Shown: positions 1,893 through 51,902 of the stretch, piece by piece | Numbering within the stretch: the first letter of the stretch is position 1 | Layout of the letters: every line of letters starts with the position of its first letter | Notes under the pieces: generated by a model | Databases searched by the model: none | The model's input: the letters and a program-made list of their open reading frames with translations, nothing else | Told to the model about the DNA's origin: nothing | Position numbers and translations under genes: made by a program | Origin: Candidatus Woesearchaeota archaeon | Lineage (GTDB): Archaea; Nanobdellota; Nanobdellia; Woesearchaeales; GW2011-AR9 | DNA: 64,000 nucleotides | NCBI GenBank assembly: GCA_016179955.1 | Contig: JACPCD010000005.1 | Span: forward strand, 10,323 to 74,322 | Reading direction: 5' to 3'

Positions 1893-3677
1893 ATGGAAAA
1901 AAAGAAAGAAGAGTTGTCCATTCAGGGACCGGTTGGCCGGCAGAGCGAATTGCATAAAGAGGGTCCTGACCGTGCTTCCACCTCTCCCGCTAACAACAGT
2001 GAGGAGGGAGCAATATCCCGTAACTACGCTCGTTGGTCGGACCACGCCGCGGCGAAGATCTCCTCGTTTCTTAAAGATAAATATAACTTGGCATTTTTAG
2101 TGGTGTTATTTTTAGCTTTTCTGATCCGCCTGAAGTACATCGGACAGGAAAGCATCTGGAATGACGCAGCCGTGCATTTATGGTATGCGATTAAAGTAAC
2201 TCACCAGCCGCTTTTTATTTTTACTCAAGAATATCTGTTAGGTGATTATGCTACGGTTCAAACCTTAACCGCTTTTTTGTATTTGTTCACTAAGAATGTG
2301 TTGCTGGCAGGGCAAATCGTCGCTATGTTTTATGCGATTATCGGAATCATATTCATGTATCTTTTAGGAACTGAAATACGCAGCCGATTTACGGGATTGA
2401 TGGCGGCAACCTTATTAGCGTTTAATCATCTTTTTTGGTTTTACAGTGCTCGTCCGTTGGGAGATTCGCCACTTCTAGTTACTACCATTGTCCTTCTGTA
2501 TTGTATGGTCAGGTTGGAAAAAGAGAAAACTCTCCGCTGGGGGATACTCAGTGGGGTTATGTTTTTAGCAGCCATGTTTACAAAGCAACAATCTGTTCTT
2601 TACATCTTCGCCTTAGTGATTTATGTGCTTTTGTTTAGACGAAAGGAAATGTTCAAAAATAAGGCCTTGCTCGCCTCTTGGCTCATTCCCGTGGTTTCCA
2701 TACTTATTGCCCATGTTGTTGGAAAAATTTTCTTTCATGCAAAAGTTTTAGATCGGATCTTCAAACTATTCTTTGATTTGCGGGGTCTGCCATTTGGATT
2801 CGAAGCAGCCGGCATGCTGCAATGGATATTTTCGTGGTACCTGATTCCTTTTGTTATTATCGGGGCTTTGCTGGTCATTTTCTACCGAGAGAAAAAGTAC
2901 TATTTTGGACTGACCCTTTTTGCATTTTATTATCTGTTCTTTGAGGTAAATGTTGATAATACCCAAGATCGCTATGTTCTCCCGTTGTTTTCCATCGCCA
3001 TACTCTTGGCAGTCTTCGCCTTGGAAGAAATAAGCACTTACATCTCCATGTTTATCCATAAGTTTGCCAAACCAATTATCGTCATTGTCGTAGTCATTTT
3101 CATTAGCTGGAATTATTATCAGGTAGGCGATGCTCTCAATTATAATAAATCTTTTAGTTATTTGGGCTATCAGGAAGCGGGGCAATGGATGAAAGAGAAT
3201 GTTCCTGCCAAAGATCCCATCTTTGTCGGTGAGTATCGCTCGATACGTGCTTTCTCCGAGAGAGAATTTGGTGGCCCTATGCTGGAAGATTACGGCGGTA
3301 ATATCATTAATCTGCGCTCACCATACCGCTACAGCACCGAAGGGGTCAAACCCAAAGAGGAAGAGCAGAGAAACTTTGAAGAAGATATTTTGGTCTTATC
3401 GCAAAGTCGTGATATCTATCTTGAAATTGACATCTGGGAATACGCCCAGCCGACCTGGTACTGGCCCTTATCGCAGGCAAGCCTGGATTATTTCGTAAGC
3501 CTCGGGTTTTATCCCGTCAAGATAATCGAACGGCCGGTGTTGACCAAGGATGGGCCAAAAACCATTCCAGTCATCTTTATTTTAAAGAAAGACCGTACCG
3601 GAACAACGGCCAATGGTTCTCTCCTACAGACAGCAGTTAATGATGAAACACAATGGCGGCAAAAGTTTCTCAATTAG
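1893..3677 (+). CDS. GT-C fold membrane glycosyltransferase (GT39/ArnT/PMT-like)
   Basis: 594 aa. Hydrophilic ~60-aa N-terminus, then more than 10 hydrophobic helices. Acidic first-loop motif (ESIWNDAAVH). Soluble C-terminal ~150 aa. Confidence 0.65.
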   Translation: MEKKKEELSIQGPVGRQSELHKEGPDRASTSPANNSEEGAISRNYARWSDHAAAKISSFLKDKYNLAFLVVLFLAFLIRLKYIGQESIWNDAAVHLWYAIKVTHQPLFIFTQEYLLGDYATVQTLTAFLYLFTKNVLLAGQIVAMFYAIIGIIFMYLLGTEIRSRFTGLMAATLLAFNHLFWFYSARPLGDSPLLVTTIVLLYCMVRLEKEKTLRWGILSGVMFLAAMFTKQQSVLYIFALVIYVLLFRRKEMFKNKALLASWLIPVVSILIAHVVGKIFFHAKVLDRIFKLFFDLRGLPFGFEAAGMLQWIFSWYLIPFVIIGALLVIFYREKKYYFGLTLFAFYYLFFEVNVDNTQDRYVLPLFSIAILLAVFALEEISTYISMFIHKFAKPIIVIVVVIFISWNYYQVGDALNYNKSFSYLGYQEAGQWMKENVPAKDPIFVGEYRSIRAFSEREFGGPMLEDYGGNIINLRSPYRYSTEGVKPKEEEQRNFEEDILVLSQSRDIYLEIDIWEYAQPTWYWPLSQASLDYFVSLGFYPVKIIERPVLTKDGPKTIPVIFILKKDRTGTTANGSLLQTAVNDETQWRQKFLN

Positions 3678-4573
3678 CCACGATCCAAGTCGATCTGGAC
3701 GGGTTATGGACCAATCTGCAGTATTATGGGCATGACGCGCCCGTAAGCCCCGATATCGTATTTACGTCGGGATTGCGCCGTTATCTGGATCTCTTTGAGG
3801 AATTAGGCATAAAAGCAACTTTTTTTGTGATCGGGAAAGATGTTGGCATTCCGGAAAAAAAAGTCTTGCTTCAGGAAGCTCATGAAAAAGGGCATGAATT
3901 GGCCAATCATACATTTACACACCCCTTTGGTTTCCGCAAATTATCAGCATCGCAACAACAGGCCGAGATTGAGCAAGGGGAAAGAGCTATAGGTTCCATT
4001 ACCGGCAAAAAGCCACGTGGATTCAAAGCGCCAGGGTATGATGTTGACACCAAAATATTATCCTTACTTGCAGAAAAAGGGTATCTTTATGATTCCTCTG
4101 TTATCCCCACCCCGGCATATCCTCTTTTAATGAAAATAAATAGTATTCTCACCCGCAGTGTCTCTCGAAACCATGGCCCGCGGTGGAGTTGGGGAATGGC
4201 TCCCAATGCACCCTATCATCCTTCGTCAAAAAAGGTCTGGAGGAAGGGAAATAATCCACTCTTGGAATTGCCGTGTACCACCTTTCCCGTACTACGAATC
4301 CCTATCCATGCCACCTTTGCCGTAAAATTAGGATACCCTTTTTTCCGAGGGGCATTAGAAGTCGTAAAGAAAAGGGCTATTCCTTTAAATTATGAATTTC
4401 ATGCTGCCGACCTGTCTGACACTATCATCGACTCACGTCTGGGGCACCTGCAAGGGATCCCAATAGAAAAAAGAATGGCTTTAGTACGAAAGATGTTAGC
4501 AGCTATCTCCACCAATTATGAGCTTCGGACTTCTATTGAGTTGGCTCAGGAGTTTATCACCCATGGCCATTGA
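3653..4573 (+). CDS. Polysaccharide deacetylase (CE4 / NodB-homology)
   Basis: KATFFVIGKDV and ELANHTFTHP motifs (NodB metal/catalytic motifs). Directly upstream of a FemAB-like gene, as in EPS loci. Confidence 0.85.
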   Translation: MAAKVSQLATIQVDLDGLWTNLQYYGHDAPVSPDIVFTSGLRRYLDLFEELGIKATFFVIGKDVGIPEKKVLLQEAHEKGHELANHTFTHPFGFRKLSASQQQAEIEQGERAIGSITGKKPRGFKAPGYDVDTKILSLLAEKGYLYDSSVIPTPAYPLLMKINSILTRSVSRNHGPRWSWGMAPNAPYHPSSKKVWRKGNNPLLELPCTTFPVLRIPIHATFAVKLGYPFFRGALEVVKKRAIPLNYEFHAADLSDTIIDSRLGHLQGIPIEKRMALVRKMLAAISTNYELRTSIELAQEFITHGH

Positions 4574-5615
4574 ACTATTAACTCCACACACTGAATCGGA
4601 ATATGCAAGGTACGTCGAGCATCATCCTCGTGGAACTATAGAATTTTTAGTAGGATGGCGAGACTTATTGCAAACAAATTTTAAGTTTAAACCAGTCTAC
4701 CTCATACGAAAAAATTCTAAAGAAGTTATTGATGGAGTTCTTCCTTTGTCTTTAGCAAAGAGTATTTTTGGTACGCGGCTTGTATCCCTGCCCTATGCAG
4801 TTTCAGCAGGTGTATTGGCTGATTCTGAAGAAGCACTCAAAGAATTAGTATCTTTTGCCGAAGAGTTGGCCCGAACTGAAAAAGTCGATTTTATAGAGAT
4901 TCGTGAATCTGAAAAAGCAACACTTTATCCGGCATCTTTTCGTTGCTCCCAAAGCGTCTTCTCTTTTTCTTTAGCCTTAAGTCCAGATGTTGATGCGGTC
5001 TGGAAAAAACTTCCTAAAGGGAGCGTCCGCTGGGGTATAAAGAAAGCGGAAAAAAGCGGATTAACCCAGAGGCATGGAAACTCCAAAGAATACCTCGATG
5101 ATTTTTATCAGCTCTTCCTGCAAACCAGGAAATATCGTGGCGTTCCAGCCTACCCCTATTCTTATTTAAAAGGGATCATGGACTTATTTAGTGATAAAGC
5201 CCGTATTTACATCGCTGATTATAACCAAAAACCGGTTGCCGGGATACTTTTATTATATTATAAACAGGAAGTGCGTTACGCTTTTGCTGGTGCGATACCC
5301 CATCCTAAAATATTGCAGTTGCAGCCGTACCATTTACTCTTATGGCCGGCAGTTAAAGATGCTTGTGAGCGCGGATATACTGTGTTTAATTTTGGGGGCG
5401 CAGCCCTTACCACCAATGACGGGGGATTATATGAATTTAAGAAGAAATGGGCTGATAAAATCACCCCTATAGAATCTTATGTTTATACTCCTAAAAAAAA
5501 ATACGTGCCCCCGTCAGAAAGCCCGTTATTTAAGATGGCTGGAAAGCTATGGCAACATCTTCCTATTCCCATAGTTAAAGCAGTTAGCCCTTATGTTATT
5601 CGTCAGTTCGTTTAA
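4563..5615 (+). CDS. FemAB-family (GNAT-fold) aminoacyl/peptidyl transferase-like protein, paralog 1
   Basis: FNFGGAALTTNDGGLYEFKKKWA and C-terminal ...SPYVIRQFV are shared with paralogs at 13753 and 59548. The track start at 4518 overlaps the deacetylase by 55 nt; ATG 4563 (MAIELL...) overlaps by only 11 nt. Confidence 0.75.
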   Translation: MAIELLTPHTESEYARYVEHHPRGTIEFLVGWRDLLQTNFKFKPVYLIRKNSKEVIDGVLPLSLAKSIFGTRLVSLPYAVSAGVLADSEEALKELVSFAEELARTEKVDFIEIRESEKATLYPASFRCSQSVFSFSLALSPDVDAVWKKLPKGSVRWGIKKAEKSGLTQRHGNSKEYLDDFYQLFLQTRKYRGVPAYPYSYLKGIMDLFSDKARIYIADYNQKPVAGILLLYYKQEVRYAFAGAIPHPKILQLQPYHLLLWPAVKDACERGYTVFNFGGAALTTNDGGLYEFKKKWADKITPIESYVYTPKKKYVPPSESPLFKMAGKLWQHLPIPIVKAVSPYVIRQFV

Positions 5616-5620
5616 ATAAA

Positions 5621-5704
5621 ATGGCAAACTACAAAATATCTTTCCTGCAAAAGGAAGAGTACCATCATTATGTTCATTTGCCAGAAGAAAACCGGTTGGA
5701 GTAA
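5621..5704 (+). pseudogene. 27-codon remnant of a FemAB-like gene 5' end (MANYKISFLQKEEYHHYVHLPEENRLE*)
   Basis: Hand alignment with the start of the 13753 gene (MENYKISFLQEQDYGKY...): 10/14 aa and 33/42 nt identical over the first 14 codons. Similarity then decays and a stop follows at 5702-5704. Confidence 0.55.
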
Positions 5705-5708
5705 TAGA

Positions 5709-6422
5709 ATGAATACTAAAATTACAGTCGATGAAAATGAATTGCGTACGAAATGCCGATGGCCGAGAAACCCAGGCATTCTAGGGGATAAAATGATGGA
5801 TGAACTAGGGGTATATCTAGCGAAGCTACTCTTACATACCGCTATTGCCCCTAACCACTTGACGATTATGGGCTTATTTTCGGGTCTTATTGGTGTGGGG
5901 TTGCTTACTTTTCCTAATTATCTAATCGTTGGAATAGGATACCTCTTGATATTCCTTTTCGGGGTTATAGATTACACTGACGGTGTCATCGCGAGATATA
6001 AAAATATAGCTTCTGAGAAAGGGAAGTATTATGATGATTTAGGGCACTTCATTCCTCCCCTCATTTTTCTGGCAGTTGGGATACACATTCTTAACACTAC
6101 CGGGAACGTAACTGCAGTTATTTTAGGCGGGCTCTCATCATTTATGTACGTGAGTATTGACTTCAATGCAAAATTAATGAATCTCATCACTGGTGAAAAA
6201 AAGCATCAGCTTTATTTAACAGGTGCATCTCCCATCAGGTCCGCGATATTAAAGATACAGAAAAACCTCACTTTTGGGGTCCATATAATCATACTCTTCG
6301 GTATAGCTACCCTTGCAGAATATTTTATTCCTGAGAGTAGTTTCTACATGTTGCTATTTTTTGCTCCGTTCCTTACTCTTACTTTTTTTGCTCAGACATT
6401 TTTCTATTCTAGAAAACTATAA
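5709..6422 (+). CDS. CDP-alcohol phosphatidyltransferase-family membrane transferase
   Basis: DYTDGVIARYKNIASEKGKYYDDLGH fits D-x2-DG-x2-AR-x8-G-x3-D, but the last Asp position is His. Multi-TM. The track start at 5670 overlaps the remnant; ATG 5709 sits just after the remnant stop. Confidence 0.75.
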   Translation: MNTKITVDENELRTKCRWPRNPGILGDKMMDELGVYLAKLLLHTAIAPNHLTIMGLFSGLIGVGLLTFPNYLIVGIGYLLIFLFGVIDYTDGVIARYKNIASEKGKYYDDLGHFIPPLIFLAVGIHILNTTGNVTAVILGGLSSFMYVSIDFNAKLMNLITGEKKHQLYLTGASPIRSAILKIQKNLTFGVHIIILFGIATLAEYFIPESSFYMLLFFAPFLTLTFFAQTFFYSRKL

Positions 6423-6469: not shown

Positions 6470-7627
6470 TTAACTAATGCGCCGCAGGATGGTGCGCAAA
6501 GATTTTTCTGTAAGCTCCCGTGGATTGTTCTTTACCCTTTCCTGATTAAATCCATTGGCAACAATAATGTCGTGATCTTCCGGGGTGGTTATGTTAAGCA
6601 TGGCCAGTTTTCTGGTAAGTTCGATCTGATCCATAAGCTGGTTTATCTTTTGTTGCATCTCCTCTGGTGTCTGGACCCGAAAGATCGAACACAAATCGTC
6701 CATAGTTTTTTTAACATAGGCCGGTCCTCTTGTATCCAGACAATCTTCAGCATTTATTCCTGTATTATAAAGAGAAATTTCTCCTAAAGTCAAGGCACAG
6801 GCATGACCATGAGCAATGCCAAAATAAGATGTTAGGGGATAAGAGATGGAGTGGCAGGCGGTAGTTTTGGAAACATTTATCGCCTTGCCCGCAAGATTAG
6901 CTGCTTTCATCATGGCCGCACGATGTTGCAGTGAAGGATTAGTGACTGCAGATTTTAAATTATCTAAAACAATAGTAATTGCCTGCCGAGCGTAATCTTT
7001 TGATTCTTCTGTTGACTGATTGGACCAGTAGGATTCGACCGCATGACACAAAGCATCTATCCCGGTAGAAGCAGTAATATTCTTAGGCAAATTTAAAGTA
7101 AGGGTTGGTTCCAGGAATACATATTCTGGCAGCATCCATTCCTGATGAGCCAGAGAATATTTTTTTTTATGGATATAAACCACCGCAAAATGGGTTGCTT
7201 CAGAACCAGTTCCAGCAGTGGTGGGGATAGCAATCAGTGGTTTTGGTTTTTGGCTTGGCTCAATCTCTTTTTTGATATACCTCTCTGGTTCTTCCGGTTC
7301 CGCCACCAGAAAATTAATTGATTTGGCCATGTCCATGACGCTTCCTCCACCAATTGCAATAGCCAGATCGCTTTCAGCCTGTCGGAATAAAGCTATTCCT
7401 TTCTTAATGTCTTCAAGTTGCGGGTTGAGTGAAAAATCAGAGAAAGTAGTTACTTTATAAGCAGAAAGAAGCGGCTCCATCATTTCTTGTGCCCTTGAAT
7501 GTTGGTAAGAAATTTTACCAGTTACTAGAAATATTGAGGAAGGTTTTTCCTGTTCTAATACTTTTTTGAGACCAGCCAGGCTTCCTGAACCAACATATTC
7601 TTGCTGCATTTTTTGCATTTCAAGCAT
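6470..7627 (-). CDS. Iron-containing (group III) alcohol dehydrogenase; by context, phosphonoacetaldehyde reductase (makes 2-hydroxyethylphosphonate)
   Basis: 385 aa Fe-ADH architecture (GGGSVMDMAK glycine motif, His-rich metal region HAVESY...HGHACA). Lies 4 nt downstream of ppd on the same strand. Confidence 0.7.
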   Translation of the reverse strand: MLEMQKMQQEYVGSGSLAGLKKVLEQEKPSSIFLVTGKISYQHSRAQEMMEPLLSAYKVTTFSDFSLNPQLEDIKKGIALFRQAESDLAIAIGGGSVMDMAKSINFLVAEPEEPERYIKKEIEPSQKPKPLIAIPTTAGTGSEATHFAVVYIHKKKYSLAHQEWMLPEYVFLEPTLTLNLPKNITASTGIDALCHAVESYWSNQSTEESKDYARQAITIVLDNLKSAVTNPSLQHRAAMMKAANLAGKAINVSKTTACHSISYPLTSYFGIAHGHACALTLGEISLYNTGINAEDCLDTRGPAYVKKTMDDLCSIFRVQTPEEMQQKINQLMDQIELTRKLAMLNITTPEDHDIIVANGFNQERVKNNPRELTEKSLRTILRRIS

Positions 7628-7631
7628 CTCT

Positions 7632-8765
7632 TCATCTTTGAATAAATTCCATGAATTTATTTTTATTTTCCATCGGAGATTGCGTGGGCCGTCCTAGATC
7701 CTTACGCGCGCCTTTATTGCAGCGTATCTCTAATAATGCCGGACCTTTCCCTTGCTTAATTGTTAGTAATTCCTCCCGTATCTCCGTCGCATTCTCAGCA
7801 CTACAAAATGTTTTATACCCATTAGCTTTCGCTATTCCGGGAATATCAATAGCATTAGCGGCGGTAGGCTGTCCGCCAACGGAGTCATGGGCAAAATTGT
7901 TGAAAATGATATGGTTAAAGTTTGCTGGTCGTAATTTTCCGATGGTTGAAAGAACTCCCATATGCATAATTAAAGCTCCGTCCCCATCAAAACAATATAC
8001 TCTTTGATTCGGCTTCTGGAGAGCGATGCCTAAAGCGATGGATGAAGAATGCCCCATCGATCCGACAGTTAAGAAATCTTGGTGGTGTCCATGTCCTGCT
8101 GCTTTCCGAAACTCAAATAATTCCCGTGAGGTTTTTCCCGTGGTAGAGACAATGATATCACCTTTATCAAGAAGCGAGGCTACCAATTTAATTGCTTCCT
8201 CCCGAATCAAGGGGAAATGAGTCTCCTGTTTCGTTTTCAATGAATAGGAATCAAATGTCCCCTCTCGAACTACGAAAGCATAAGGAGTTTTAGTATTGTC
8301 CAAATGTTCAGCCGCTTTTTGTACTTCTTTTTTCACTTCCTCTTCACTTTCAGGAAGGATAGCATACGGAATTTCTAACACCTCCAGCAACGGCAAAGTT
8401 ATTCTGCCCATCTTGCGATGCTGCGGCTCATCTTTTTTTCCTGCTTCGCCCCGCCATCCGATGAGCAGCAGCAGCGGTAAGGAATAAATTTCTTTATCGG
8501 TAAGCGAGGTTAGAGGATTAATACAATTGCCTAATCCCGAATTCTGTAAATAAACTACGCCCACTCTTCCTGTTGCTAAATGATAGCCTGCGGCTAAGGC
8601 AATGGCATTTCCTTCATTGGCAGCAATGATATTATTTTTTGAAGAAGTATTATCTGTAACGTACGCACAGAAATCTTTCAACAGGGAATCAGGGACGCCA
8701 GCGTAAAAAGAAAAGCCGTGTCCATGCAATAGATTAAAAAAGTATTGCGGTGAAATCATCTCCAT
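7632..8765 (-). CDS. ppd: Phosphonopyruvate decarboxylase (TPP-dependent)
   Basis: N-terminus ...FFNLLHGHGFSFYAGVPDSLLKDF and TPP motif GDGALIMHMG...x...NN. Sits in a locus with PEP mutase. TATA geometry favours Met3 (ATG 8759) as a leaderless start. Confidence 0.85.
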   Translation of the reverse strand: MEMISPQYFFNLLHGHGFSFYAGVPDSLLKDFCAYVTDNTSSKNNIIAANEGNAIALAAGYHLATGRVGVVYLQNSGLGNCINPLTSLTDKEIYSLPLLLLIGWRGEAGKKDEPQHRKMGRITLPLLEVLEIPYAILPESEEEVKKEVQKAAEHLDNTKTPYAFVVREGTFDSYSLKTKQETHFPLIREEAIKLVASLLDKGDIIVSTTGKTSRELFEFRKAAGHGHHQDFLTVGSMGHSSSIALGIALQKPNQRVYCFDGDGALIMHMGVLSTIGKLRPANFNHIIFNNFAHDSVGGQPTAANAIDIPGIAKANGYKTFCSAENATEIREELLTIKQGKGPALLEIRCNKGARKDLGRPTQSPMENKNKFMEFIQR

Positions 8766-8781
8766 TCAGAGAAATATGCCG

Positions 8782-8789
8782 TTTATAAA
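8782..8789 (-). promoter_or_regulatory. TATA-like box TTTATAAA for the ppd-adh operon
   Basis: Centre is 26.5 nt from ATG 8759 (Met3) and 20.5 nt from ATG 8765. Confidence 0.5.
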
Positions 8790-8868
8790 AGTGATGAAAC
8801 GTGTTTCCCCATTAAATCTGTTGTCTTTAGGACTTGACAAACCCCAAGTTCGCAAGAAAATCATAACC

Positions 8869-8876
8869 TTTAAATA
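8869..8876 (+). promoter_or_regulatory. TATA-like box TTTAAATA for the radical SAM gene
   Basis: Centre is 27.5 nt upstream of ATG 8900. Confidence 0.55.
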
Positions 8877-8899
8877 TTCTCAAACTTCTTCAACTTTTA

Positions 8900-10438
8900 A
8901 TGAGTAAAAGTTCGCTTCCGATAATTAATACTGGACCCGAAGAAGATTGTTTCAATTCGTCCCCACGACGACTCTCTAAAGTACCAATGACGCCTGCCCT
9001 AGAAACTTTGCTTAATCCCCATTTACATAACAAAGAAGCTATTTTTACAAGCCCCATAAGACCGCCCGCGGAGGGTGAGAAAATATACCATCTTTCAGAG
9101 GAACAGATTAAAGCACTAAGGGATTTGAGAGGAAACACTATTGATCTTCATCCCGGCATGGGCGGGATTGCCCCCCATAAACTTATTGACATGATTAAGC
9201 AAGGAAAACCGCTAACTTCTTTAGATTATATGATCACCAGAGGATGTAATTTTGAATGCACTTGGTGTTTCGCTGGGTCTGATCCTTATCAAAGAGATTA
9301 TCTTCCTTTTAACGTTCTTGAATCATTAACCACAGAAGCTGCGGATATAGGAGTAAGTTTATTTGTTCTCACTGGTGGGGAACCGTTGGTATATAAAGAC
9401 CCCGCTCTAGGAAAACAAAAGGAGCGAGGGGACCATTTTTTTAGAATTGTTCAAATGATCAGAGATACTTATAATAGAAAGGATAATCCGGCAAAGATCC
9501 TTACCTTTGATGATGTAGCCTTAATCACGCCGAAAATTGCCAAAAATTTCGCTGATTTTGAGGTTGGCTTATGTACAAAAGGCGATACTTTAAACCCGGA
9601 ATTGCAAGATTTTAAAGTCAATCAATCAGGAGCATTTAAAAAAATGCAACAGGGATACGAAAACCTGATGCATGTTGGATATGGTAAAAATCCAAAATTA
9701 CGCTTGGTTGTTAATTCAGTTCTGGACCACACCACTTTTGATGGAATAATCGATCTTCACCTGTGGGTCATGAAAAATGGATTTGATCACTCGATTGTTC
9801 CAGTACACTATTGCGGCAATGCTGAAAATGAGGATCAGGAGGCAGGAATACATTCTCCGCATGTAAAAGTCCTCTATGATTTAATCACCAGAATTGATGC
9901 TGCATATTTTGGTGTAAAATGGGAAGCTTGGTCTGCGTTTACGTACAATAAAACCTGTAACCGGAATAGATCGGGGTTGCACATCAGGGCCGATGGAGAC
10001 GTTACCGCGTGTTCAGAATCCCCAGGGAGATCTGAAACCAATAAATATACTTTTGGTAATGTTTTATCCGATAAAAATTTTTCACTTAGAACGCTAGCTA
10101 ATAGCCAACAATTAGCTGCTTACCGGGAAGAATTTGCTAAAGGACATGGCACCTATGTCTGCTCCCCAAAAGTATGTGATTTGTATGCTAATGATTTATG
10201 TCAGGGCGGTTGCGCAACTCGATCAGCGTATTCAAAAATTGATTATGAAACTGGTCTGATTGTAAAAAACGATAACCCCCATAGTTATAGTGAATTTAGG
10301 GAAGACCCTTTATGTCCTGCTTGGACCGTTCTTGCTGAACGCCAGGGCGTTCTTAAAAAAAGTTTACTGAGAGAAATTCATGATCGGCTACTTTCCAACA
10401 GTCAAAGTATAGAAGCGAGAGAATTCCCTTTTTCTTAA
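8900..10438 (+). CDS. Radical SAM enzyme with C-terminal Cys-rich SPASM/twitch-like domain; substrate unknown
   Basis: CNFECTWC (C116-x3-C120-x2-C123) plus the GGEPL glycine motif. C-terminal CSPKVCDLYANDLCQGGCATRS. About 100-aa N-terminal extension with no motif I recognise. Confidence 0.8.
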   Translation: MSKSSLPIINTGPEEDCFNSSPRRLSKVPMTPALETLLNPHLHNKEAIFTSPIRPPAEGEKIYHLSEEQIKALRDLRGNTIDLHPGMGGIAPHKLIDMIKQGKPLTSLDYMITRGCNFECTWCFAGSDPYQRDYLPFNVLESLTTEAADIGVSLFVLTGGEPLVYKDPALGKQKERGDHFFRIVQMIRDTYNRKDNPAKILTFDDVALITPKIAKNFADFEVGLCTKGDTLNPELQDFKVNQSGAFKKMQQGYENLMHVGYGKNPKLRLVVNSVLDHTTFDGIIDLHLWVMKNGFDHSIVPVHYCGNAENEDQEAGIHSPHVKVLYDLITRIDAAYFGVKWEAWSAFTYNKTCNRNRSGLHIRADGDVTACSESPGRSETNKYTFGNVLSDKNFSLRTLANSQQLAAYREEFAKGHGTYVCSPKVCDLYANDLCQGGCATRSAYSKIDYETGLIVKNDNPHSYSEFREDPLCPAWTVLAERQGVLKKSLLREIHDRLLSNSQSIEAREFPFS

Positions 10439-10515
10439 GGTTAGATCTCCATTTGTAATTCCATTGAAGCCGTAAAAATATTTTTGAAGATATATCTTTA
10501 TTAAGTTTATTATAC

Positions 10516-10555
10516 CAAAAGACATAATTATTTATACAATTTGTTATGTCTTTTG
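10516..10555. terminator. Hairpin 1 in a convergent intergenic region (12-bp perfect stem CAAAAGACATAA/TTATGTCTTTTG, 16-nt loop)
   Basis: Arms at 10516-10527 and 10544-10555, paired by hand. Confidence 0.35.
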
Positions 10556-10561
10556 TATATA

Positions 10562-10599
10562 CAAATGGCGTAAATTTGTATAACAATTTACGTCATTTG
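10562..10599. terminator. Hairpin 2 (15-bp stem with one G-U, 8-nt loop TGTATAAC)
   Basis: Arms at 10562-10576 (CAAATGGCGTAAATT) and 10585-10599 (AATTTACGTCATTTG). Confidence 0.35.
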
Positions 10600-10631
10600 G
10601 TATAGGTAGGGAATTACCACTTAGTAAAGGA

Positions 10632-11999
10632 CTAAACCTTATTTCTTCCTTCTTGGTTAAACCAGGGAATCATTTCACCAAAAGCACGGGCAGAATTCTG
10701 TTTCCCTATCAACGAAAGTTCTCGCTGAGGTTCACCCGCAACCCTTCCGCCAATTCTCAAAACTAATAATTTTCCATCCGGTCCGCGAAAATTATGTGGA
10801 ACAAACGGCTTTACATACATAGAGTCGTTTGGCATGATGGATTCGCAATACTCGTGGTCATCAGTGCGCCAGTTAATGTTCACTGGTGAATTTCCCACAT
10901 TATACACATATTGATGCAGGCCGACTTTAAGATCTAGGATGTCTCGGTTTTTATCGGACTGTTTAAGAACTTTCAACTCCAAGGCCCGGGAGTGGGATAG
11001 ATGACTTGTTCTTGCCAATTCCACCAATTTATACGCTGGATCAATACTGGGAAAATCCCATCTCCGGTTAGTTCTATAATAATTGACCAACACTTTCTTT
11101 TGTATATCGTCTGGAGGCAGTAATTCCCGCCGGTCAATATTTAATGCTTCTGCCAGCGCTTCGAGGTCATCAGGTTTTGGTAAAACCGTTCCCAATTCAT
11201 ATTTTTCTAAAAGAGATAAAGAAAGTCCAGTTCTCCGAGTTAATTCCGGATGATCAATACCGGCTGCTTCTCTATGAAACCGTAGCAGAGAAGCAGCTGC
11301 TTTTTCTCGAGTAGAAAAATCCAAGGCATAATCAGCGGCAAGTTCTGGACCTATTGCAGATAATTCTTGTTGTGTTTCTCCGGCAAGCTTATTTCCATAG
11401 GTTAAAGCAAGAATAAGTCCTTTCTCGCCAGCCCTATTCTTGCGGGTGGCAAATGTATGCGGAACAAACGGAGTAATATACATGGAGTCGCCGGTATTCA
11501 TGACCGCAACTTTTTTATCCCCCCTTTCTCCTTTGTAATAAAAATTAACCGGACCGATAAAGTATGTAAATTGATGCAGGAAGTGTCCATTGTTCCATTG
11601 CACTGCCTGATGGTTAGCACTATTGTTATCTACTATGCACAGTTCTTTGATCCATTCCGGCCGAAATTGGCCGACCGTGCTGGCAACTGTATCGCGATAT
11701 TCATAATACGGCTGGCCGGCACGTTTCATAACCCGGCTAGTTTTGGCGGATTCTTTCGCTCGCATGATTTTAACACCGATTGGACAATCATCGTTGACAC
11801 AATAGAAATCACGTTCGTTGACCGGCCATATCCCTGCTGCTCGCCTTATTAATTCCGCCGGAATCTCTTTCTCACCACTTAAATAATAATTAAGTTCGTC
11901 CACTGGGATCTTAAGGTCAGCTGCTGCATCTTCCGGTCGGCGTTTGAGATCATTCAGAATGCCTAAGAGATTCTGCGCGCTTCTTTTTTTATAGTTCAT
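10632..11999 (-). CDS. mpnS: HEPD/MPnS-family non-heme Fe(II) 2-hydroxyethylphosphonate-cleaving dioxygenase; residue pattern predicts methylphosphonate synthase
   Basis: 455 aa with two (HTH + cupin) repeats. The first cupin has H139, Q143, H181 with F153 and I175. All five sit at a constant -9 offset from the N. maritimus MPnS residues H148, Q152, H190, F162, I184 as I recall them. No Glu at the position of the HEPD Glu ligand (I175 instead). Codons verified on the DNA (CAC 11585-11583, CAA 11573-11571, TTT 11543-11541, ATT 11477-11475, CAT 11459-11457). Confidence 0.65.
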   Translation of the reverse strand: MNYKKRSAQNLLGILNDLKRRPEDAAADLKIPVDELNYYLSGEKEIPAELIRRAAGIWPVNERDFYCVNDDCPIGVKIMRAKESAKTSRVMKRAGQPYYEYRDTVASTVGQFRPEWIKELCIVDNNSANHQAVQWNNGHFLHQFTYFIGPVNFYYKGERGDKKVAVMNTGDSMYITPFVPHTFATRKNRAGEKGLILALTYGNKLAGETQQELSAIGPELAADYALDFSTREKAAASLLRFHREAAGIDHPELTRRTGLSLSLLEKYELGTVLPKPDDLEALAEALNIDRRELLPPDDIQKKVLVNYYRTNRRWDFPSIDPAYKLVELARTSHLSHSRALELKVLKQSDKNRDILDLKVGLHQYVYNVGNSPVNINWRTDDHEYCESIMPNDSMYVKPFVPHNFRGPDGKLLVLRIGGRVAGEPQRELSLIGKQNSARAFGEMIPWFNQEGRNKV

Positions 12000-12104
12000 T
12001 TTATTCCAGTTGGGGCTACTATGTCAAAAATATGCCACCTGCCTATTTGACCGGTGGACCATGTCCCTCGGTGTGGTTTTCGGCAGCATATTGGGATTGG
12101 AGTC

Positions 12105-13409
12105 TCATTCACCATTTGGTATTAGAGTAATAATTTCTTTAATGGACATGCATTGTTCATTACTTGCTTCATAACTTCGTTTATTCTTTAAAATAGATTC
12201 TGCTGTTTTTACCATAGCAGGATAAGCACTACGCAATAAATGATTAGCATATACAACCATATTAACTCCTGCCGTAATAAGTTCTTCTTCAGTGATTATA
12301 GAATAGGTGCTAGGGACCACGACTAAACTTACTTTAGTCTCAAATTTTTTGTATTCCTTGCAAAACTGTAAAATTTCTTCCGGGTTCTTTTCTTTACTAT
12401 GGATCATTATTCCATCAGCTCCAGCGGCAATGTATGCTTTTGCTCTTTCCAGGGCGTCAGCTAAACCTTTCTTTAGAATTAAACTTTCTATTCTCGCAAT
12501 AATCATAAAATCATCGGAAGCCTGAGACTTTTTCCCTTCTGAAATCTTGCGGCAAAAATTTTCTATTGTATCCTGATTTTGCTCTACTTCAGTTTCAAAA
12601 AGAGAATTTCTTTTCGAACCAATTTTATCTTCAATTACCACTGCTGAGACGCCCAATCTTTCCAAGGTTTTTACCGTAAAGCGGAAATGTTCAATTAATC
12701 CTCCGCTGTCAGCATCTACCAGCATTGGTTTAGTAGTTACCTCAAAAATTTCACTTACAGTGTTGCCTATAGAGGTAATATCCACATATTCAATATCTGG
12801 TTTACCTTTAGAAGTAGCATGGGTCAAACTGCTTAACCAAGTGGCATCAAATGTTTTGGGGACATTATCTTCATCTTTCACCATGGTTTTTTCAACAATA
12901 ATCCCGGTTAAACCATTATGGGCTTCTAAGATGCGTATCATGGATTTAGCGTCCAGCAAACGCCGCAGCATATTGCGGCGAATATCGGGGGTAATTCCTC
13001 TTTGTTTAACTTTAGTTATTAGCTGGGTTGAAGAAATCCCCTGAGTATAAAGCGGTTCAACAACTTGGCCGCCCCATTCTTTCATCACCTCTATTACCCT
13101 TTGGCGCTTTTTTGCCTGTATCCCTATTTTCCAGTCATCGCCATGAACAAAATAATCCGGCTTTAATTCTCGTATGGCGGGGATGTAATCGTCATCTTCC
13201 TGCGCATAGACCTTGCTTACCGTGCGTATATTTTCAATAACTTTTTTACGCTGCTCAAAAGTCAATATGGGGAGCCGCTTATAATTAGCAATGGCCCGAT
13301 CGGTCAGAAGCCCCACTGTCACTTCTCCAAGTTTGCTGGCTTCATTAAGAATATTCATATGGCCGTCGTGGAGTAAATCGGCAGCCATGGGAACATATAC
13401 TTTTTTCAT
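12105..13409 (-). CDS. pepM: Fusion of a cytidylyltransferase-like domain (HxGH) and phosphoenolpyruvate phosphomutase
   Basis: N-terminal MAADLLHDGHMNIL (HxGH nucleotidyltransferase motif, ~135 aa). The C-terminal ICL/PEPM fold carries the PepM-diagnostic EDKIGSKRNS (EDK-x5-NS). SD-like GTGAGGT lies 8 nt upstream of the ATG. Confidence 0.85.
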   Translation of the reverse strand: MKKVYVPMAADLLHDGHMNILNEASKLGEVTVGLLTDRAIANYKRLPILTFEQRKKVIENIRTVSKVYAQEDDDYIPAIRELKPDYFVHGDDWKIGIQAKKRQRVIEVMKEWGGQVVEPLYTQGISSTQLITKVKQRGITPDIRRNMLRRLLDAKSMIRILEAHNGLTGIIVEKTMVKDEDNVPKTFDATWLSSLTHATSKGKPDIEYVDITSIGNTVSEIFEVTTKPMLVDADSGGLIEHFRFTVKTLERLGVSAVVIEDKIGSKRNSLFETEVEQNQDTIENFCRKISEGKKSQASDDFMIIARIESLILKKGLADALERAKAYIAAGADGIMIHSKEKNPEEILQFCKEYKKFETKVSLVVVPSTYSIITEEELITAGVNMVVYANHLLRSAYPAMVKTAESILKNKRSYEASNEQCMSIKEIITLIPNGE

Positions 13410-50294: not shown

Positions 50295-50316
50295 TCCATA
50301 AATTTGGGTCATAATA

Positions 50317-50336
50317 TTTATAAATATTCTGGAACA
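50317..50336. promoter_or_regulatory. Palindromic TATA box TTTATAAA (within ATATTTATAAATAT) serving both directions, + 2 nt + decamer TTCTGGAACA
   Basis: TATA centre is 28.5 nt from ATG 50349 (+) and 26.5 nt from ATG 50294 (-). Confidence 0.55.
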
Positions 50337-50348
50337 TTTAACACTTAT

Positions 50349-51902
50349 ATGGCAGATATTATACTTTTACAGCCAAAGTGTGGCGTATGGGATATTATGG
50401 GGGTTCGGGCCCCCACCGGCTTGCTGGCTGTTGGCGCAGTTCCAGTTAACGATGGGTATGCCGTCGTTCTTATTGACCAAAGGGTCAATTTTAATTGGGA
50501 AAATGAAGTAAAGAAGCAGATCCTGGCCGGAGCCAAAATTGTTTGCTTAACCACCATGGTTGGAGAGCAGATTATTCTGATGATGCATGCGTCAAAATTC
50601 GTGAAGTCACTAAATCCCGGCATTATCACGGTCCTTGGAGGAAGCTGGGCGCAAATACAGCCAGAAATGTGCATGCAGGATGATAATATTGATATTGTTT
50701 GTTATGGGGAAGGAGACCATCTTCTTTCCGATATTATGGCTTACTGCGCAGGGGAGAAAAAAATTGAACAAGTGCCGGGCATATTCTATAGAACGCCCGA
50801 TGGCGAAATAAGAAAGACAACACCTCGTCCATCCATTAAGAACCTTGATGAGCTCCCCCCTATACCTTATCATCTTATTAACCTCAAAAATTATGCTGCA
50901 GTCGGTTTTCGCCCCCATTATCCCTCAATGGCTCTGGTGACCAGCCGTGGATGCCAGTTCCGATGTACTTTTTGCAATATCGTTACACTCTCCAAGTCCA
51001 CAAATGAATTCGGAGAGATGCTCTCTAACCAGTGGCGGGGATATTCTGTCAAGCGTTTAATGGCTGATTTAGAGCATTTAGAAAAAACCTATGGGATTAA
51101 AGACTTTTACTTCCAGGATGATTTAATTAGCGGTAGCCATAACCGTTTTGTAGAATTTGTCAAAACCATCGCAGAATCAGGGAAAGATTACAATTGGGGA
51201 ACCGCTGGCATTCGGGGGGACCATATCCTCAGGTTAGATGACCAAACAATGGAAAATTTAGTAAAAAGTGGCTGCAGAAACTTAGACGTGGGGGTCGAAT
51301 CGGGAAATCCCCGTATGCTTAAATTAATGAAGAAGGACACCACTTTAGAGGTAATCCGGAAAGTCAACCAAAAGATGAGCAAGTACCCCATCATTATTAA
51401 ATATACTTTTATGGGGGGGTTTCCAACGGAAACGGAGGAGGAGTTTTTGGACACTATGAAATTTAGAAGAATCCTTCAAGAGGAGAATGAATATGCGGTG
51501 GCGCCTATCTTTTTCTATACCCCTTATCCAGGAACAGAAATGTTTCAGTTGGCGATAGATCAAGGATTTGTTCCTCCCCAAACCTTGCAGGAATGGGCTG
51601 ACTTTAATTATAACACCTGGTATTTAAAATACCCTTGTTGGTTAACCGCCCAAAAAATCCGCTTAGTTGAGAATGCCGTATTTTTATCCTATTTCTCTGA
51701 TAAAAAGATGGGATACAAATATCCTAACCCTTTGCTCCGGAGGCTGTTCCTGATGTATTATCCTTTTGCCAGATTTCGCTACCGCCATGATTTTTATAGG
51801 TTTATGGCGGAAAAGTACCTGGCAAAAGCCTTATCTCATTTAAATTCAAAGACAGATTTATTTAATCGTATACAGAAAAGATCCACTAACACTGCTCCCT
51901 AA
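50349..51902 (+). CDS. B12-binding-domain radical SAM enzyme (class B type)
   Basis: N-terminal Rossmann-like B12-binding region (ILLQPK..., VCLTTMVGEQ, VLGGSW). Radical SAM CQFRCTFC (C-x3-C-x2-C). The track start at 50304 would overlap the divergent gene; ATG 50349 (MADIILLQ...) fits the TATA spacing. Confidence 0.8.
   Translation: MADIILLQPKCGVWDIMGVRAPTGLLAVGAVPVNDGYAVVLIDQRVNFNWENEVKKQILAGAKIVCLTTMVGEQIILMMHASKFVKSLNPGIITVLGGSWAQIQPEMCMQDDNIDIVCYGEGDHLLSDIMAYCAGEKKIEQVPGIFYRTPDGEIRKTTPRPSIKNLDELPPIPYHLINLKNYAAVGFRPHYPSMALVTSRGCQFRCTFCNIVTLSKSTNEFGEMLSNQWRGYSVKRLMADLEHLEKTYGIKDFYFQDDLISGSHNRFVEFVKTIAESGKDYNWGTAGIRGDHILRLDDQTMENLVKSGCRNLDVGVESGNPRMLKLMKKDTTLEVIRKVNQKMSKYPIIIKYTFMGGFPTETEEEFLDTMKFRRILQEENEYAVAPIFFYTPYPGTEMFQLAIDQGFVPPQTLQEWADFNYNTWYLKYPCWLTAQKIRLVENAVFLSYFSDKKMGYKYPNPLLRRLFLMYYPFARFRYRHDFYRFMAEKYLAKALSHLNSKTDLFNRIQKRSTNTAP

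What the first reader, a model, noticed from the sequence alone, without database searches (positions are those of the whole stretch)
10632..11999. Active-site residues predict methylphosphonate synthase rather than HEPD
Seen in sequence: cupin 1 contains H139-x3-Q143, F153, I175 and H181. I checked all five codons on the DNA.

From memory of the published MPnS and HEPD structures, N. maritimus MPnS uses a 2-His-1-Gln triad (H148, Q152, H190). The Gln is held in place by F162 and I184. HEPDs instead have either a Glu ligand or Tyr/Gly at the two gatekeeper positions.

All five residues here match the MPnS identities at one constant offset of -9. The position that is Glu in the Glu-type HEPD is Ile here. 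This alignment was done by hand from remembered residue numbers, so it needs confirmation.
Basis: partly seen in the sequence, partly recalled or inferred. Interest (0 to 1): 0.85.

Follow-up and report, generated by a model that had tools for sequence, protein, structure and literature searches.

The report
Methylphosphonate synthase in a Woesearchaeota genome
The gene is very probably a genuine methylphosphonate synthase, sitting next to the enzymes that make its substrate. It lies in a tiny DPANN archaeon (Woesearchaeota) where databases call it a "helix-turn-helix protein". It is an ordinary member of a known enzyme family found in an unreported host.

Summary
Window 10632-11999 on the minus strand encodes a 455-aa protein with H139, Q143, F153, I175 and H181.

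These align at a constant +9 offset with H148, Q152, F162, I184 and H190 of N. maritimus MPnS (E 2e-158). S. albus HEPD has Tyr/Gly at the two gatekeeper positions. PhpD places its Glu176 ligand in the column of I175. An AlphaFold model (pLDDT 96) superposes on MPnS with 2-HEP and Fe(II) at TM 0.96-0.98.

The three enzymes that make 2-HEP lie beside it: a Fom1-type cytidylyltransferase::PEP mutase fusion, phosphonopyruvate decarboxylase and an Fe-alcohol dehydrogenase. A CDP-alcohol phosphotransferase follows, all inside a 64-kb surface-glycan island.

The residue rule is published and routinely used. F/I is the majority state among homologues (57 of 86 representatives). Sister sequences are already listed as MPnS in the supplement of a 2025 groundwater paper.

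What is new is the host. The protein is MBI2145790.1 from a Candidatus Woesearchaeota MAG, inside a well-supported clade of about 19 DPANN sequences. No searchable paper links MPnS to DPANN.

Verdict: new member of a known kind, with moderate interest.

The parts
10632..11999 (-). Methylphosphonate synthase (MPnS) orthologue, 455 aa. The fold is a two-fold repeat of an HTH-like helical domain plus a cupin. The Fe(II) site is in cupin 1.
   Evidence: establish the ORF; 531 bits, E 2e-158 to PDB 6b9s MPnS. AF2 pLDDT 96.3. Foldseek top hit 6b9t, TM 0.96-0.98; 100% identical to MBI2145790.1 (accession).
11457..11585 (-). Cupin-1 active-site segment. It holds the Fe ligands H139 (11583-11585), Q143 (11571-11573) and H181 (11457-11459). 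It also holds the gatekeepers F153 (11541-11543) and I175 (11475-11477).
   Evidence: One search gives the codons. Searches give alignments to MPnS, S. albus HEPD and PhpD.
12105..13409 (-). Bifunctional protein of 434 aa. It has an N-terminal Fom1-type cytidylyltransferase domain (aa ~1-140) fused to PEP mutase (aa ~145-434, with the motif EDKIGSKRNS at aa 260). It lies 105 bp upstream of mpnS on the same strand.
   Evidence: Pfam CTP_transf_like + PEP_mutase. TIGR02320, 386 bits, above the cutoff of 319.55; aa 4-136 match PDB 5x3d (Fom1 CyTase domain), 167 bits, E 2e-48; motif.
7632..8765 (-). Phosphonopyruvate decarboxylase (Ppd), 377 aa, TPP-dependent.
   Evidence: TIGR03297, 500.8 bits, above the cutoff of 312.5. 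TPP_enzyme_N/C.
6470..7627 (-). Iron-containing alcohol dehydrogenase, 385 aa. It is the presumed phosphonoacetaldehyde reductase that makes 2-HEP. It starts 4 bp after ppd.
   Evidence: Fe-ADH + ADH_Fe_C; the best NCBIfam hit is TIGR03405 Phn_Fe-ADH, but at 194 bits it is below the 423.7 cutoff; syntenic in DPANN loci L004-L010 (except L005 and L009, where the fetched contig ends first), at 59-71% identity.
5670..6422 (+). CDP-alcohol phosphotransferase family membrane protein, 250 aa. It is a candidate for transferring the CMP-activated phosphonate to a lipid or glycan acceptor (inferred).
   Evidence: PF01066, 33.8 bits. A counterpart follows the ADH in four DPANN loci (L004/L008, which are the same contig, and L006 and L007), at 29-30% identity.
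8900..10438 (+). Radical SAM/SPASM protein, 512 aa. It is inserted on the opposite strand between mpnS and ppd. Its role is unknown and probably not part of the core pathway.
   Evidence: Searches show only weak, generic rSAM/SPASM matches. One search shows no homologue in any of the other related loci.

Best explanation
The gene encodes a functional methylphosphonate synthase, a non-heme Fe(II), O2-dependent enzyme that converts 2-hydroxyethylphosphonate (2-HEP) to methylphosphonate (MPn) plus CO2.

Shown here:
- Fe(II) would be held by H139, Q143 and H181.
- F153 and I175 occupy the two positions that, in the crystallised enzyme, pack against the Gln ligand.
- Adjacent genes supply the substrate: PEP -> phosphonopyruvate (PepM domain) -> phosphonoacetaldehyde (Ppd) -> 2-HEP (Fe-ADH).

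From established knowledge (Born et al. 2017, recalled from memory; the paper could not be opened here): fixing the Gln keeps the formate intermediate bound. The methylphosphonate radical then takes its H atom, giving MPn + CO2. In HEPD the radical is hydroxylated instead, giving hydroxymethylphosphonate + formate.

Inferred:
- The Fom1-type cytidylyltransferase domain fused to PepM activates the phosphonate (MPn, possibly also 2-HEP) as a CMP ester.
- The neighbouring CDP-alcohol phosphotransferase-family protein then installs it on a lipid or glycan of the cell surface. This fits the 64-kb surface-glycan island around the cluster.
- The host is a Woesearchaeota (DPANN) archaeon.
For: - Residues and alignment.
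- PhpD Glu176 aligns with I175.
- Columns invariant across 72 diverse homologues include K19, R93, Y101, N136, H139, Q143, H181 and W446. These correspond to Nm K28, R102, Y110, N145, H148, Q152, H190 and W449.
- AF2 model pLDDT 96.3, pTM 0.92. The best structural match is MPnS+2-HEP+Fe(II), 6b9t, TM 0.96-0.98, rmsd 1.2 A. S. albus HEPD follows at TM 0.92-0.95 and PhpD at 0.72-0.79.
- PepM and Ppd pass NCBIfam equivalog cutoffs. The PepM motif EDKIGSKRNS is present.
- The order CTPt::PepM - MPnS - Ppd - Fe-ADH - CDP-OH transferase is conserved in other DPANN MAGs.
- The five-residue criterion is the one used in the literature to call MPnS (PMC11978286).
- Fom1 CyTase homology. Its CMP-HEP activity and the frequency of PF01467-Ppm fusions are described in PMC6697681 and PMC8942020.
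- Host: MBI2145790.1 is labelled 'Candidatus Woesearchaeota archaeon'. All named relatives of an AsnB gene 50 kb away are Woesearchaeota or Nanoarchaeota. The closest MPnS relatives are Nanoarchaeota or Woesearchaeota MAGs. The NJ clade of 19 has 99% bootstrap support.
Against: - There is no biochemical evidence for this protein.
- As I recall, the F/I rule rests on few tested enzymes: N. maritimus and Pelagibacter MPnS, and the S. albus HEPD Y163F/G184I switch.
- MPnS needs O2, whereas Woesearchaeota are usually described as anaerobic or fermentative. Expression and activity in vivo are therefore not guaranteed.
- The Fe-ADH scores below the curated cutoff of the phosphonate-specific model.
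- The substrate of the cytidylyltransferase domain is unknown. Its characterised homologue, Fom1, acts on 2-HEP, not MPn.
- The host assignment rests on MAG binning. The window has no rRNA, tRNA or other marker. Three related MAGs carry a conflicting 'Methanosarcinales' label.
Confidence: 0.88

Rival explanations
1. It is a 2-hydroxyethylphosphonate dioxygenase (HEPD) that makes hydroxymethylphosphonate + formate. The cluster would then decorate the surface with HMP or a derivative.
For: HEPD and MPnS share fold, substrate and the first catalytic steps. S. albus HEPD is a clear homologue (282 bits; TM 0.92-0.95). Y/G variants occur even inside the MPnS-like clade (P0075, P0106, P0120, L018), so overall similarity alone does not decide the product.
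Against: Both gatekeepers are F/I, not Y/G. The Glu-ligand position of PhpD is Ile. The protein is about 52% identical to MPnS and 37% identical to S. albus HEPD.
Confidence: 0.04
2. It has the MPnS fold but acts on a different or modified substrate, for example CMP-2-HEP made by the fused Fom1-type cytidylyltransferase, or another hydroxyalkylphosphonate. The product would then not be free MPn.
For: The adjacent PepM carries a close homologue of the Fom1 CyTase domain (167 bits), whose known substrate is 2-HEP (PMC6697681). The relative HppE acts on 2-hydroxypropylphosphonate.
Against: All residues invariant in the family, which include the positions I recall as phosphonate-binding in MPnS, are conserved. 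Pelagibacteraceae loci have the same CTPt::PepM fusion next to their mpnS. As I recall, Pelagibacter MPnS converts free 2-HEP to MPn in vitro. In the fosfomycin pathway the cupin enzyme acts after the CMP has been removed.
Confidence: 0.06
3. It is an XRE-family helix-turn-helix transcriptional regulator, as the public annotation says.
For: Pfam HTH_31 (47 bits) and HTH_3 (32 bits) match aa 236-293 above their thresholds. NCBI names it 'helix-turn-helix domain-containing protein'.
Against: The same HTH-like domains are structural parts of crystallised MPnS and HEPD. The full length aligns with these enzymes. The name arises because NCBIfam holds no MPnS model.
Confidence: 0.01
4. The enzyme call is right, but the contig is not from a DPANN archaeon. 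It would be mis-binned, or a recently transferred island from a bacterium or thaumarchaeon.
For: No phylogenetic marker lies in the window. The cluster is mosaic: PepM and Ppd are nearest to the gammaproteobacterial/myxococcal type (about 62% and about 50%), while MPnS is nearest to the thaumarchaeal type (52-57%). Some related MAGs are labelled Methanosarcinales.
Against: The same cluster, at 64-92% identity for PepM and Ppd, occurs in at least five independently assembled MAGs, three of them labelled Nanoarchaeota (the other two carry the 'Methanosarcinales' label). AsnB at the far end of the window has only Woesearchaeota or Nanoarchaeota among its named relatives. The GC content of the cluster genes (0.39-0.43) matches the window (0.41).
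Confidence: 0.1

Closest known systems
Nitrosopumilus maritimus methylphosphonate synthase (PDB 6b9s/6b9t)
   Same: It aligns over the full length (E 2e-158). It has the same 2-His-1-Gln triad and F/I gatekeepers, and an identical VMNTGDSMYITPF.PHTF motif. The invariant K/R/Y/N/W positions are conserved. The predicted structure superposes at TM 0.96-0.98. It is linked to pepM, ppd and an Fe-ADH.
   Different: Identity is only about 52-57%. The DPANN sequences form their own clade (99% bootstrap). The accompanying PepM is of the cytidylyltransferase-fused type and is only about 34% identical to the unfused thaumarchaeal PepM. The host is a DPANN archaeon rather than an ammonia oxidiser.
Pelagibacter (SAR11) MPnS clusters
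   Same: The gatekeepers are F/I. PepM carries the same N-terminal PF01467 cytidylyltransferase domain (45-53% identity). Ppd and Fe-ADH are adjacent.
   Different: MPnS identity is only 43-45%. These are bacterial hosts in marine surface water.
Streptomyces albus HEPD (PDB 6b9r; Gln-type HEPD)
   Same: It has the same fold, the same H/Q/H ligands and the same substrate.
   Different: It has Y163/G184 where the query has F153/I175. Identity is 37%. Its product is hydroxymethylphosphonate + formate.
Streptomyces viridochromogenes PhpD (PDB 3g7d; Glu-type HEPD)
   Same: It has the bi-cupin/HTH-like architecture (TM 0.72-0.79).
   Different: It uses a 2-His-1-Glu triad, with E176 in the column of query I175. 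Identity is about 20%. It was found only with a profile, not by phmmer.
Fom1 (fosfomycin pathway) cytidylyltransferase::PEP mutase
   Same: The neighbouring 434-aa protein has the same two-domain architecture. Its N-terminal domain matches the Fom1 CyTase structure 5x3d at E 2e-48.
   Different: The pathway context differs. There is no Fom3/FomD/HppE set. The only B12-rSAM in the window, at 50304-51902, is 38 kb away and resembles AprD4 best. The substrate of the CyTase domain here is untested.

Membership tests
Methylphosphonate synthase (MPnS) | Full-length homology to the crystallised enzyme, with a two-fold repeat of HTH-like domain plus cupin | tested here: met
   query 3-453 aligns with chain 12-456, 531 bits. 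TM 0.96-0.98 to 6b9t.
Methylphosphonate synthase (MPnS) | 2-His-1-Gln Fe(II) triad (Nm H148, Q152, H190) | tested here: met
   H139, Q143 and H181. These columns are invariant in 72 homologues.
Methylphosphonate synthase (MPnS) | Phe and Ile at the two Gln-adjacent gatekeeper positions (Nm F162, I184). This criterion is cited from Born et al. 2017 in PMC11978286. | tested here: met
   F153 and I175. S. albus HEPD has Y/G in the same columns.
Methylphosphonate synthase (MPnS) | Conserved 2-HEP phosphonate-binding residues (Nm K28, R102, Y110, N145, W449). Their role is recalled from memory. | tested here: met
   K19, R93, Y101, N136 and W446 are present and invariant in the family alignment.
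Methylphosphonate synthase (MPnS) | Genomic linkage to the 2-HEP pathway (PepM, Ppd, phosphonoacetaldehyde reductase) | tested here: met
   The synteny is conserved in DPANN relatives. The ADH scores below the curated cutoff of the Phn_Fe-ADH model.
Methylphosphonate synthase (MPnS) | Catalysis: 2-HEP + O2 -> methylphosphonate + CO2/HCO3- | not testable with these tools
   This needs an enzyme assay.
HEPD, Gln type (S. albus class) | Tyr and Gly at the gatekeeper positions (Y163, G184) | tested here: not met
   the query has F and I.
HEPD, Glu type (PhpD class) | 2-His-1-Glu triad with the Glu six residues before the second His (E176, H182) | tested here: not met
   E176 aligns with query I175. 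The third ligand is Q143 instead.
HppE (hydroxypropylphosphonate epoxidase) | Protein of about 198 aa with a single HTH-like domain plus cupin, and close sequence similarity | tested here: not met
   The query is a 455-aa double module. HppE matches only weakly (E 1e-9 to 1e-4).
XRE-family HTH transcriptional regulator (current database name) | An HTH domain acting as a DNA-binding module of a regulator | tested here: inconclusive
   The Pfam HTH_31 and HTH_3 matches are real. However, they cover a structural domain shared with crystallised MPnS and HEPD. DNA binding was not tested and is not expected.

The most novel reading that the evidence does not exclude
Woesearchaeales-type DPANN archaea may be unrecognised producers of methylphosphonate in groundwater and other non-marine waters. 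Their mpnS clade is the one found in the same Alberta groundwater sample (C4) where methane formation from methylphosphonate by Methylotenera was proposed.

They would use an O2-dependent enzyme despite their reputed anaerobic lifestyle. They would attach MPn to their cell surface by a Fom1-like CMP activation followed by a CDP-alcohol-type transfer. This would supply the missing MPn source for aerobic methane production in those habitats.
Probability: 0.4. Interest if true: 0.55.

Novelty: new member of a known kind. Interest (0 to 1): 0.35.

Why it matters
Methylphosphonate is the substrate from which C-P lyase releases methane in oxic water. Its known producers are marine Thaumarchaeota, SAR11 and a few other bacteria (PMC9381506).

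A complete MPn pathway in DPANN archaea would extend the producers to an abundant but little-understood group. That group is common in groundwater and stratified lakes, where the source of MPn is an open question. [quoted passage not shown]

It would also imply oxygen use and an unusual surface chemistry in organisms with minimal genomes.

In practical terms, this clade is annotated as 'helix-turn-helix domain-containing protein' because NCBIfam has no MPnS model. Annotation-based surveys therefore miss it.

Tried and rejected
- Papers: Born et al. 2017 (by DOI and as PMC5901744) and Metcalf et al. 2012 (PMC3466329) could not be opened. The mechanistic detail and the role of the K/R/Y/N/W residues therefore rest on memory, on PMC11978286's restatement of the rule, and on residue numbers checked against the PDB sequences.
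- PhpD: phmmer with the single protein did not find PhpD even at E<=10. A 72-sequence profile was needed.
- Markers: Rfam and tRNA scans of the window found nothing, so there is no in-window phylogenetic marker.
- Fom3 test: I asked whether the B12-binding radical SAM at 50304-51902 could be a Fom3-like phosphonate methyltransferase. Its best solved relative is AprD4 (67 bits), and no solved Fom3-like phosphonate methyltransferase appears among its PDB matches (TokK and CysS only at about 25-27 bits). It is 38 kb away, so I rejected it as part of the pathway.
- Sample origin: SRR12113431, SRR12113383 and SRR12113430, which hold identical contigs, were not found in the supplements of the groundwater DPANN paper PMC7906910. 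The sample origin stays unverified.
- Literature: eight of the ten searches looked for any link between MPnS or methylphosphonate and DPANN, Woesearchaeota or Nanoarchaeota. The only co-occurrences were unrelated.
- Phylogeny: the neighbour-joining tree resolves the DPANN clade (99%). It does not resolve its sister group (27-57% support), so I make no claim about the donor lineage.

Full report
**Observation**

The coordinates 10632-11999 hold one ORF on the minus strand, running from ATG to stop and encoding 455 aa. The plus-strand reading is full of stops.

- H139, CAC
- Q143, CAA
- F153, TTT
- I175, ATT
- H181, CAT

**Comparison with solved structures**

A phmmer search of all PDB sequences gave these matches:

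| Match | PDB | Score |
|---|---|---|
| N. maritimus methylphosphonate synthase | 6b9s/6b9t | 531 bits, E 2e-158 |
| S. albus HEPD | 6b9r | 282 bits |
| HppE | several | E 1e-9 to 1e-4 |

The MPnS alignment pairs query 3-453 with chain 12-456 and has no gap through cupin 1. The constant offset of 9 is therefore real: H148, Q152, F162, I184, H190.

Counting along the same output, S. albus HEPD carries H149, Q153, Y163, G184, H190. That is Tyr/Gly at the two gatekeeper positions.

PhpD, the Glu-type HEPD, was invisible to phmmer even at E<=10. A profile built from 72 diverse homologues (alignment A1) found it at E 2e-22. That alignment sets 'ITGDSYVEPSYCPH' against the profile's 'ntGDSvyitpfvpH'. 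PhpD E176 therefore falls in the column of query I175, and H182 in the column of H181.

**Wider family**

I aligned 208 full-length homologues with MAFFT: the 119 closest hits, 86 representatives at 50% clustering, the query, and two reference sequences rebuilt from the PDB alignments.
- The five columns read HQFIH in 175 sequences and HQYGH in 22, with scattered other combinations.
- Among the 86 representatives alone, 57 are HQFIH and 18 are HQYGH.

F/I is therefore the majority state in the Gln-type family and is not a rarity.

Columns invariant across A1 include K19, R89, R93, Y101, D103, N136, G138, H139, Q143, H181 and W446. By the offsets these correspond to Nm K28, R102, Y110, N145 and W449. 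I recall these as the phosphonate-contacting residues. The numbers do land on K, R, Y, N and W in the PDB sequence.

**Structure**

AlphaFold2 run with A1 gave pLDDT 96.3 and pTM 0.92. Foldseek against the PDB ranked the matches as follows:

| Structure | TM-score | Other |
|---|---|---|
| MPnS with 2-HEP and Fe(II), 6b9t | 0.96-0.98 | rmsd 1.2 A, 52% identity |
| S. albus HEPD | 0.92-0.95 | 37% identity |
| PhpD | 0.72-0.79 | |

**Genomic context**

- Directly upstream on the same strand, after a 105-bp gap, lies a 434-aa protein. It has a PF01467 cytidylyltransferase-like domain fused to PEP mutase. It scores 386 bits on TIGR02320, above the cutoff, and has the diagnostic EDKIGSKRNS motif.
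- Its first 136 residues match PDB 5x3d, the cytidylyltransferase domain of Fom1, at 167 bits. Fom1 makes CMP-2-HEP, and PF01467-Ppm fusions make up about a quarter of all Ppm proteins (PMC6697681; PMC8942020).
- Downstream lie phosphonopyruvate decarboxylase (TIGR03297, 501 bits) and an Fe-alcohol dehydrogenase. The dehydrogenase's best NCBIfam match is the phosphonate-cluster ADH model, though below its cutoff.
- A CDP-alcohol phosphotransferase-family protein follows.
- A radical SAM/SPASM gene on the opposite strand interrupts the cluster. It has no counterpart in any related locus.
- The rest of the 64-kb window consists of glycosyltransferases, aminosugar enzymes, FemAB-like ligases, deacetylases and a flippase. 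It is a surface-glycan island.

**Host and relatives**

The protein is identical to MBI2145790.1, named 'helix-turn-helix domain-containing protein [Candidatus Woesearchaeota archaeon]'. NCBIfam contains no MPnS model, and the best hit is an irrelevant phage repressor at 24 bits. That explains the name.

The 20 closest clusters (60-73% identity) include Nanoarchaeota MAG proteins, also named HTH proteins. Thaumarchaeal MPnS follow at 54-58%.

A scan of GTDB species representatives found the same protein type at 64-71% identity in five MAGs. Three are labelled Nanoarchaeota, and two are doubtfully labelled 'Methanosarcinales'. More distant copies occur in two Woesearchaeota MAGs and in Nitrosopumilaceae, Dehalococcoidia/Chloroflexota, a Patescibacteria MAG, Myxococcota, Acidobacteriota, Gammaproteobacteria and Pelagibacteraceae. 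All but one of those loci read HQFIH.

In a bootstrapped NJ tree the query lies in a clade of 19 sequences with 99% support. Deeper nodes are unresolved.

Synteny of CTPt::PepM - MPnS - Ppd - Fe-ADH - CDP-OH transferase is conserved in the DPANN loci.

An asparagine synthase 50 kb away in the window has only Woesearchaeota or Nanoarchaeota among its named relatives. The cluster's GC content matches that of the window. The DPANN assignment is therefore reasonable, although it rests on binning.

**Literature**

- The five-residue rule is published and in routine use. [quoted passage not shown]
- Its alignment supplement contains, as HQ_C4_g0077 and HQ_C4_g0074, sequences matching my P0009 and P0019 wherever compared; these are the two Nanoarchaeota MAG proteins from sample C4. 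The paper names no organism for them.
- Surveys of marine MPnS list Thaumarchaeota, a 'Crenarchaeota archaeon' and several bacterial orders, but no DPANN (PMC9381506).
- No paper in the searchable library links MPnS or methylphosphonate synthesis with DPANN, Woesearchaeota or Nanoarchaeota (the co-occurrences were checked).

**Mechanism**

Shown by sequence and model:
- an MPnS-type Fe site with both gatekeepers;
- a complete neighbouring route from PEP to 2-HEP.

From established knowledge: Fe(II) and O2 cleave C1-C2 of 2-HEP. The immobilised Gln keeps formate bound, so the methylphosphonate radical abstracts its hydrogen. This yields MPn + CO2 rather than the HEPD products.

Inferred: CMP activation by the Fom1-type domain, then transfer by the CDP-alcohol-type enzyme onto a surface lipid or glycan. 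Whether the cytidylyltransferase takes MPn or 2-HEP is open.

**Verdict**

The enzyme is an ordinary member of a known family. The new element is its presence, with a conserved cluster, in DPANN archaea that are mis-annotated in public databases. I rate this as a new member of a known kind, with interest about 0.35.

Noticed in passing
Proteins P0075, P0106 and P0120; locus L018 2949-4295 (Marine Group I thaumarchaeote SAG AC-665-F20): Tyr/Gly (HEPD-type) gatekeepers occur inside the MPnS-like, thaumarchaeal-type clade. These proteins are 56-58% identical to the query and 56% to N. maritimus MPnS, but only about 37% to S. albus HEPD. The F/I to Y/G switch has apparently happened more than once. 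Overall similarity to MPnS therefore does not predict the product.
   Followed up: partly
window 12105-13409 (-), aa 1-140: The domain fused to PEP mutase is a close homologue of the Fom1 cytidylyltransferase domain (PDB 5x3d, 167 bits). Fom1 cytidylylates 2-HEP in fosfomycin biosynthesis. The same fusion accompanies mpnS in Pelagibacteraceae, Agarilytica, Marinicella and Myxococcota loci, but not in Thaumarchaeota.
   Followed up: partly
window 6470-13409 compared with loci L004-L048: The cluster is mosaic. The DPANN PepM and Ppd are nearest to gammaproteobacterial and myxococcal versions (about 62% and about 50%), and only about 34% and about 40% identical to thaumarchaeal ones. The MPnS, in contrast, is nearest to the thaumarchaeal type (52-57%) and only 43-48% identical to the proteobacterial ones.
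   Followed up: partly
window 8900-10438 (+): A 512-aa radical SAM/SPASM protein sits on the opposite strand between mpnS and ppd in this genome only. In the related MAG locus L004 that slot holds an unrelated 298-aa protein with no Pfam hit. This is an O2-sensitive enzyme type next to an O2-dependent one.
   Followed up: partly
window 1-64000: The whole window is one surface-glycan biosynthesis island. It holds Alg13/Alg14-like genes, PMT_2/Agl23-like genes, GT1/GT2/GT4 glycosyltransferases, four or more DegT aminotransferases, three FemAB-like/GNAT proteins, two polysaccharide deacetylases, a flippase, nucleotidyltransferases and AsnB. No rRNA, tRNA or Rfam hit was found.
   Followed up: partly
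window 50304-51902 (+): This is a B12-binding radical SAM protein of 532 aa. Its best solved relative is AprD4, the apramycin 3'-deoxygenation enzyme (67 bits), rather than a phosphonate methyltransferase. It is probably a sugar-modifying enzyme.
   Followed up: partly
loci L006, L007 and L034 (CAYIEF01, CAYJQD01, CAYFJX01): MAGs labelled 'uncultured Methanosarcinales archaeon' carry an mpnS. L006 and L007 carry the DPANN-type cluster, with 70-71% identity in MPnS and 91-92% in the cytidylyltransferase domain. L034 has only a more distant mpnS (47%) with no detected cluster neighbours. The taxonomic label looks unreliable.
   Followed up: no
loci L015 and L045 (JANWIZ01, Patescibacteria group bacterium CRAIB_MAG54): A CPR/Patescibacteria MAG also carries an F/I-type mpnS (51-56% identity), with thaumarchaeal-type PepM and Ppd. 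This is either another ultra-small-cell lineage with the pathway or a mis-binned thaumarchaeal contig.
   Followed up: no
window 3653-4573 (+) and 4518-5615 (+): The listed polysaccharide deacetylase and FemAB-like ORFs overlap by 56 nt. The gene caller used for locus L001 starts the FemAB-like gene later (350 aa versus 365 aa listed). Several other gene pairs in the island overlap by a few bases, indicating tight operons.
   Followed up: no
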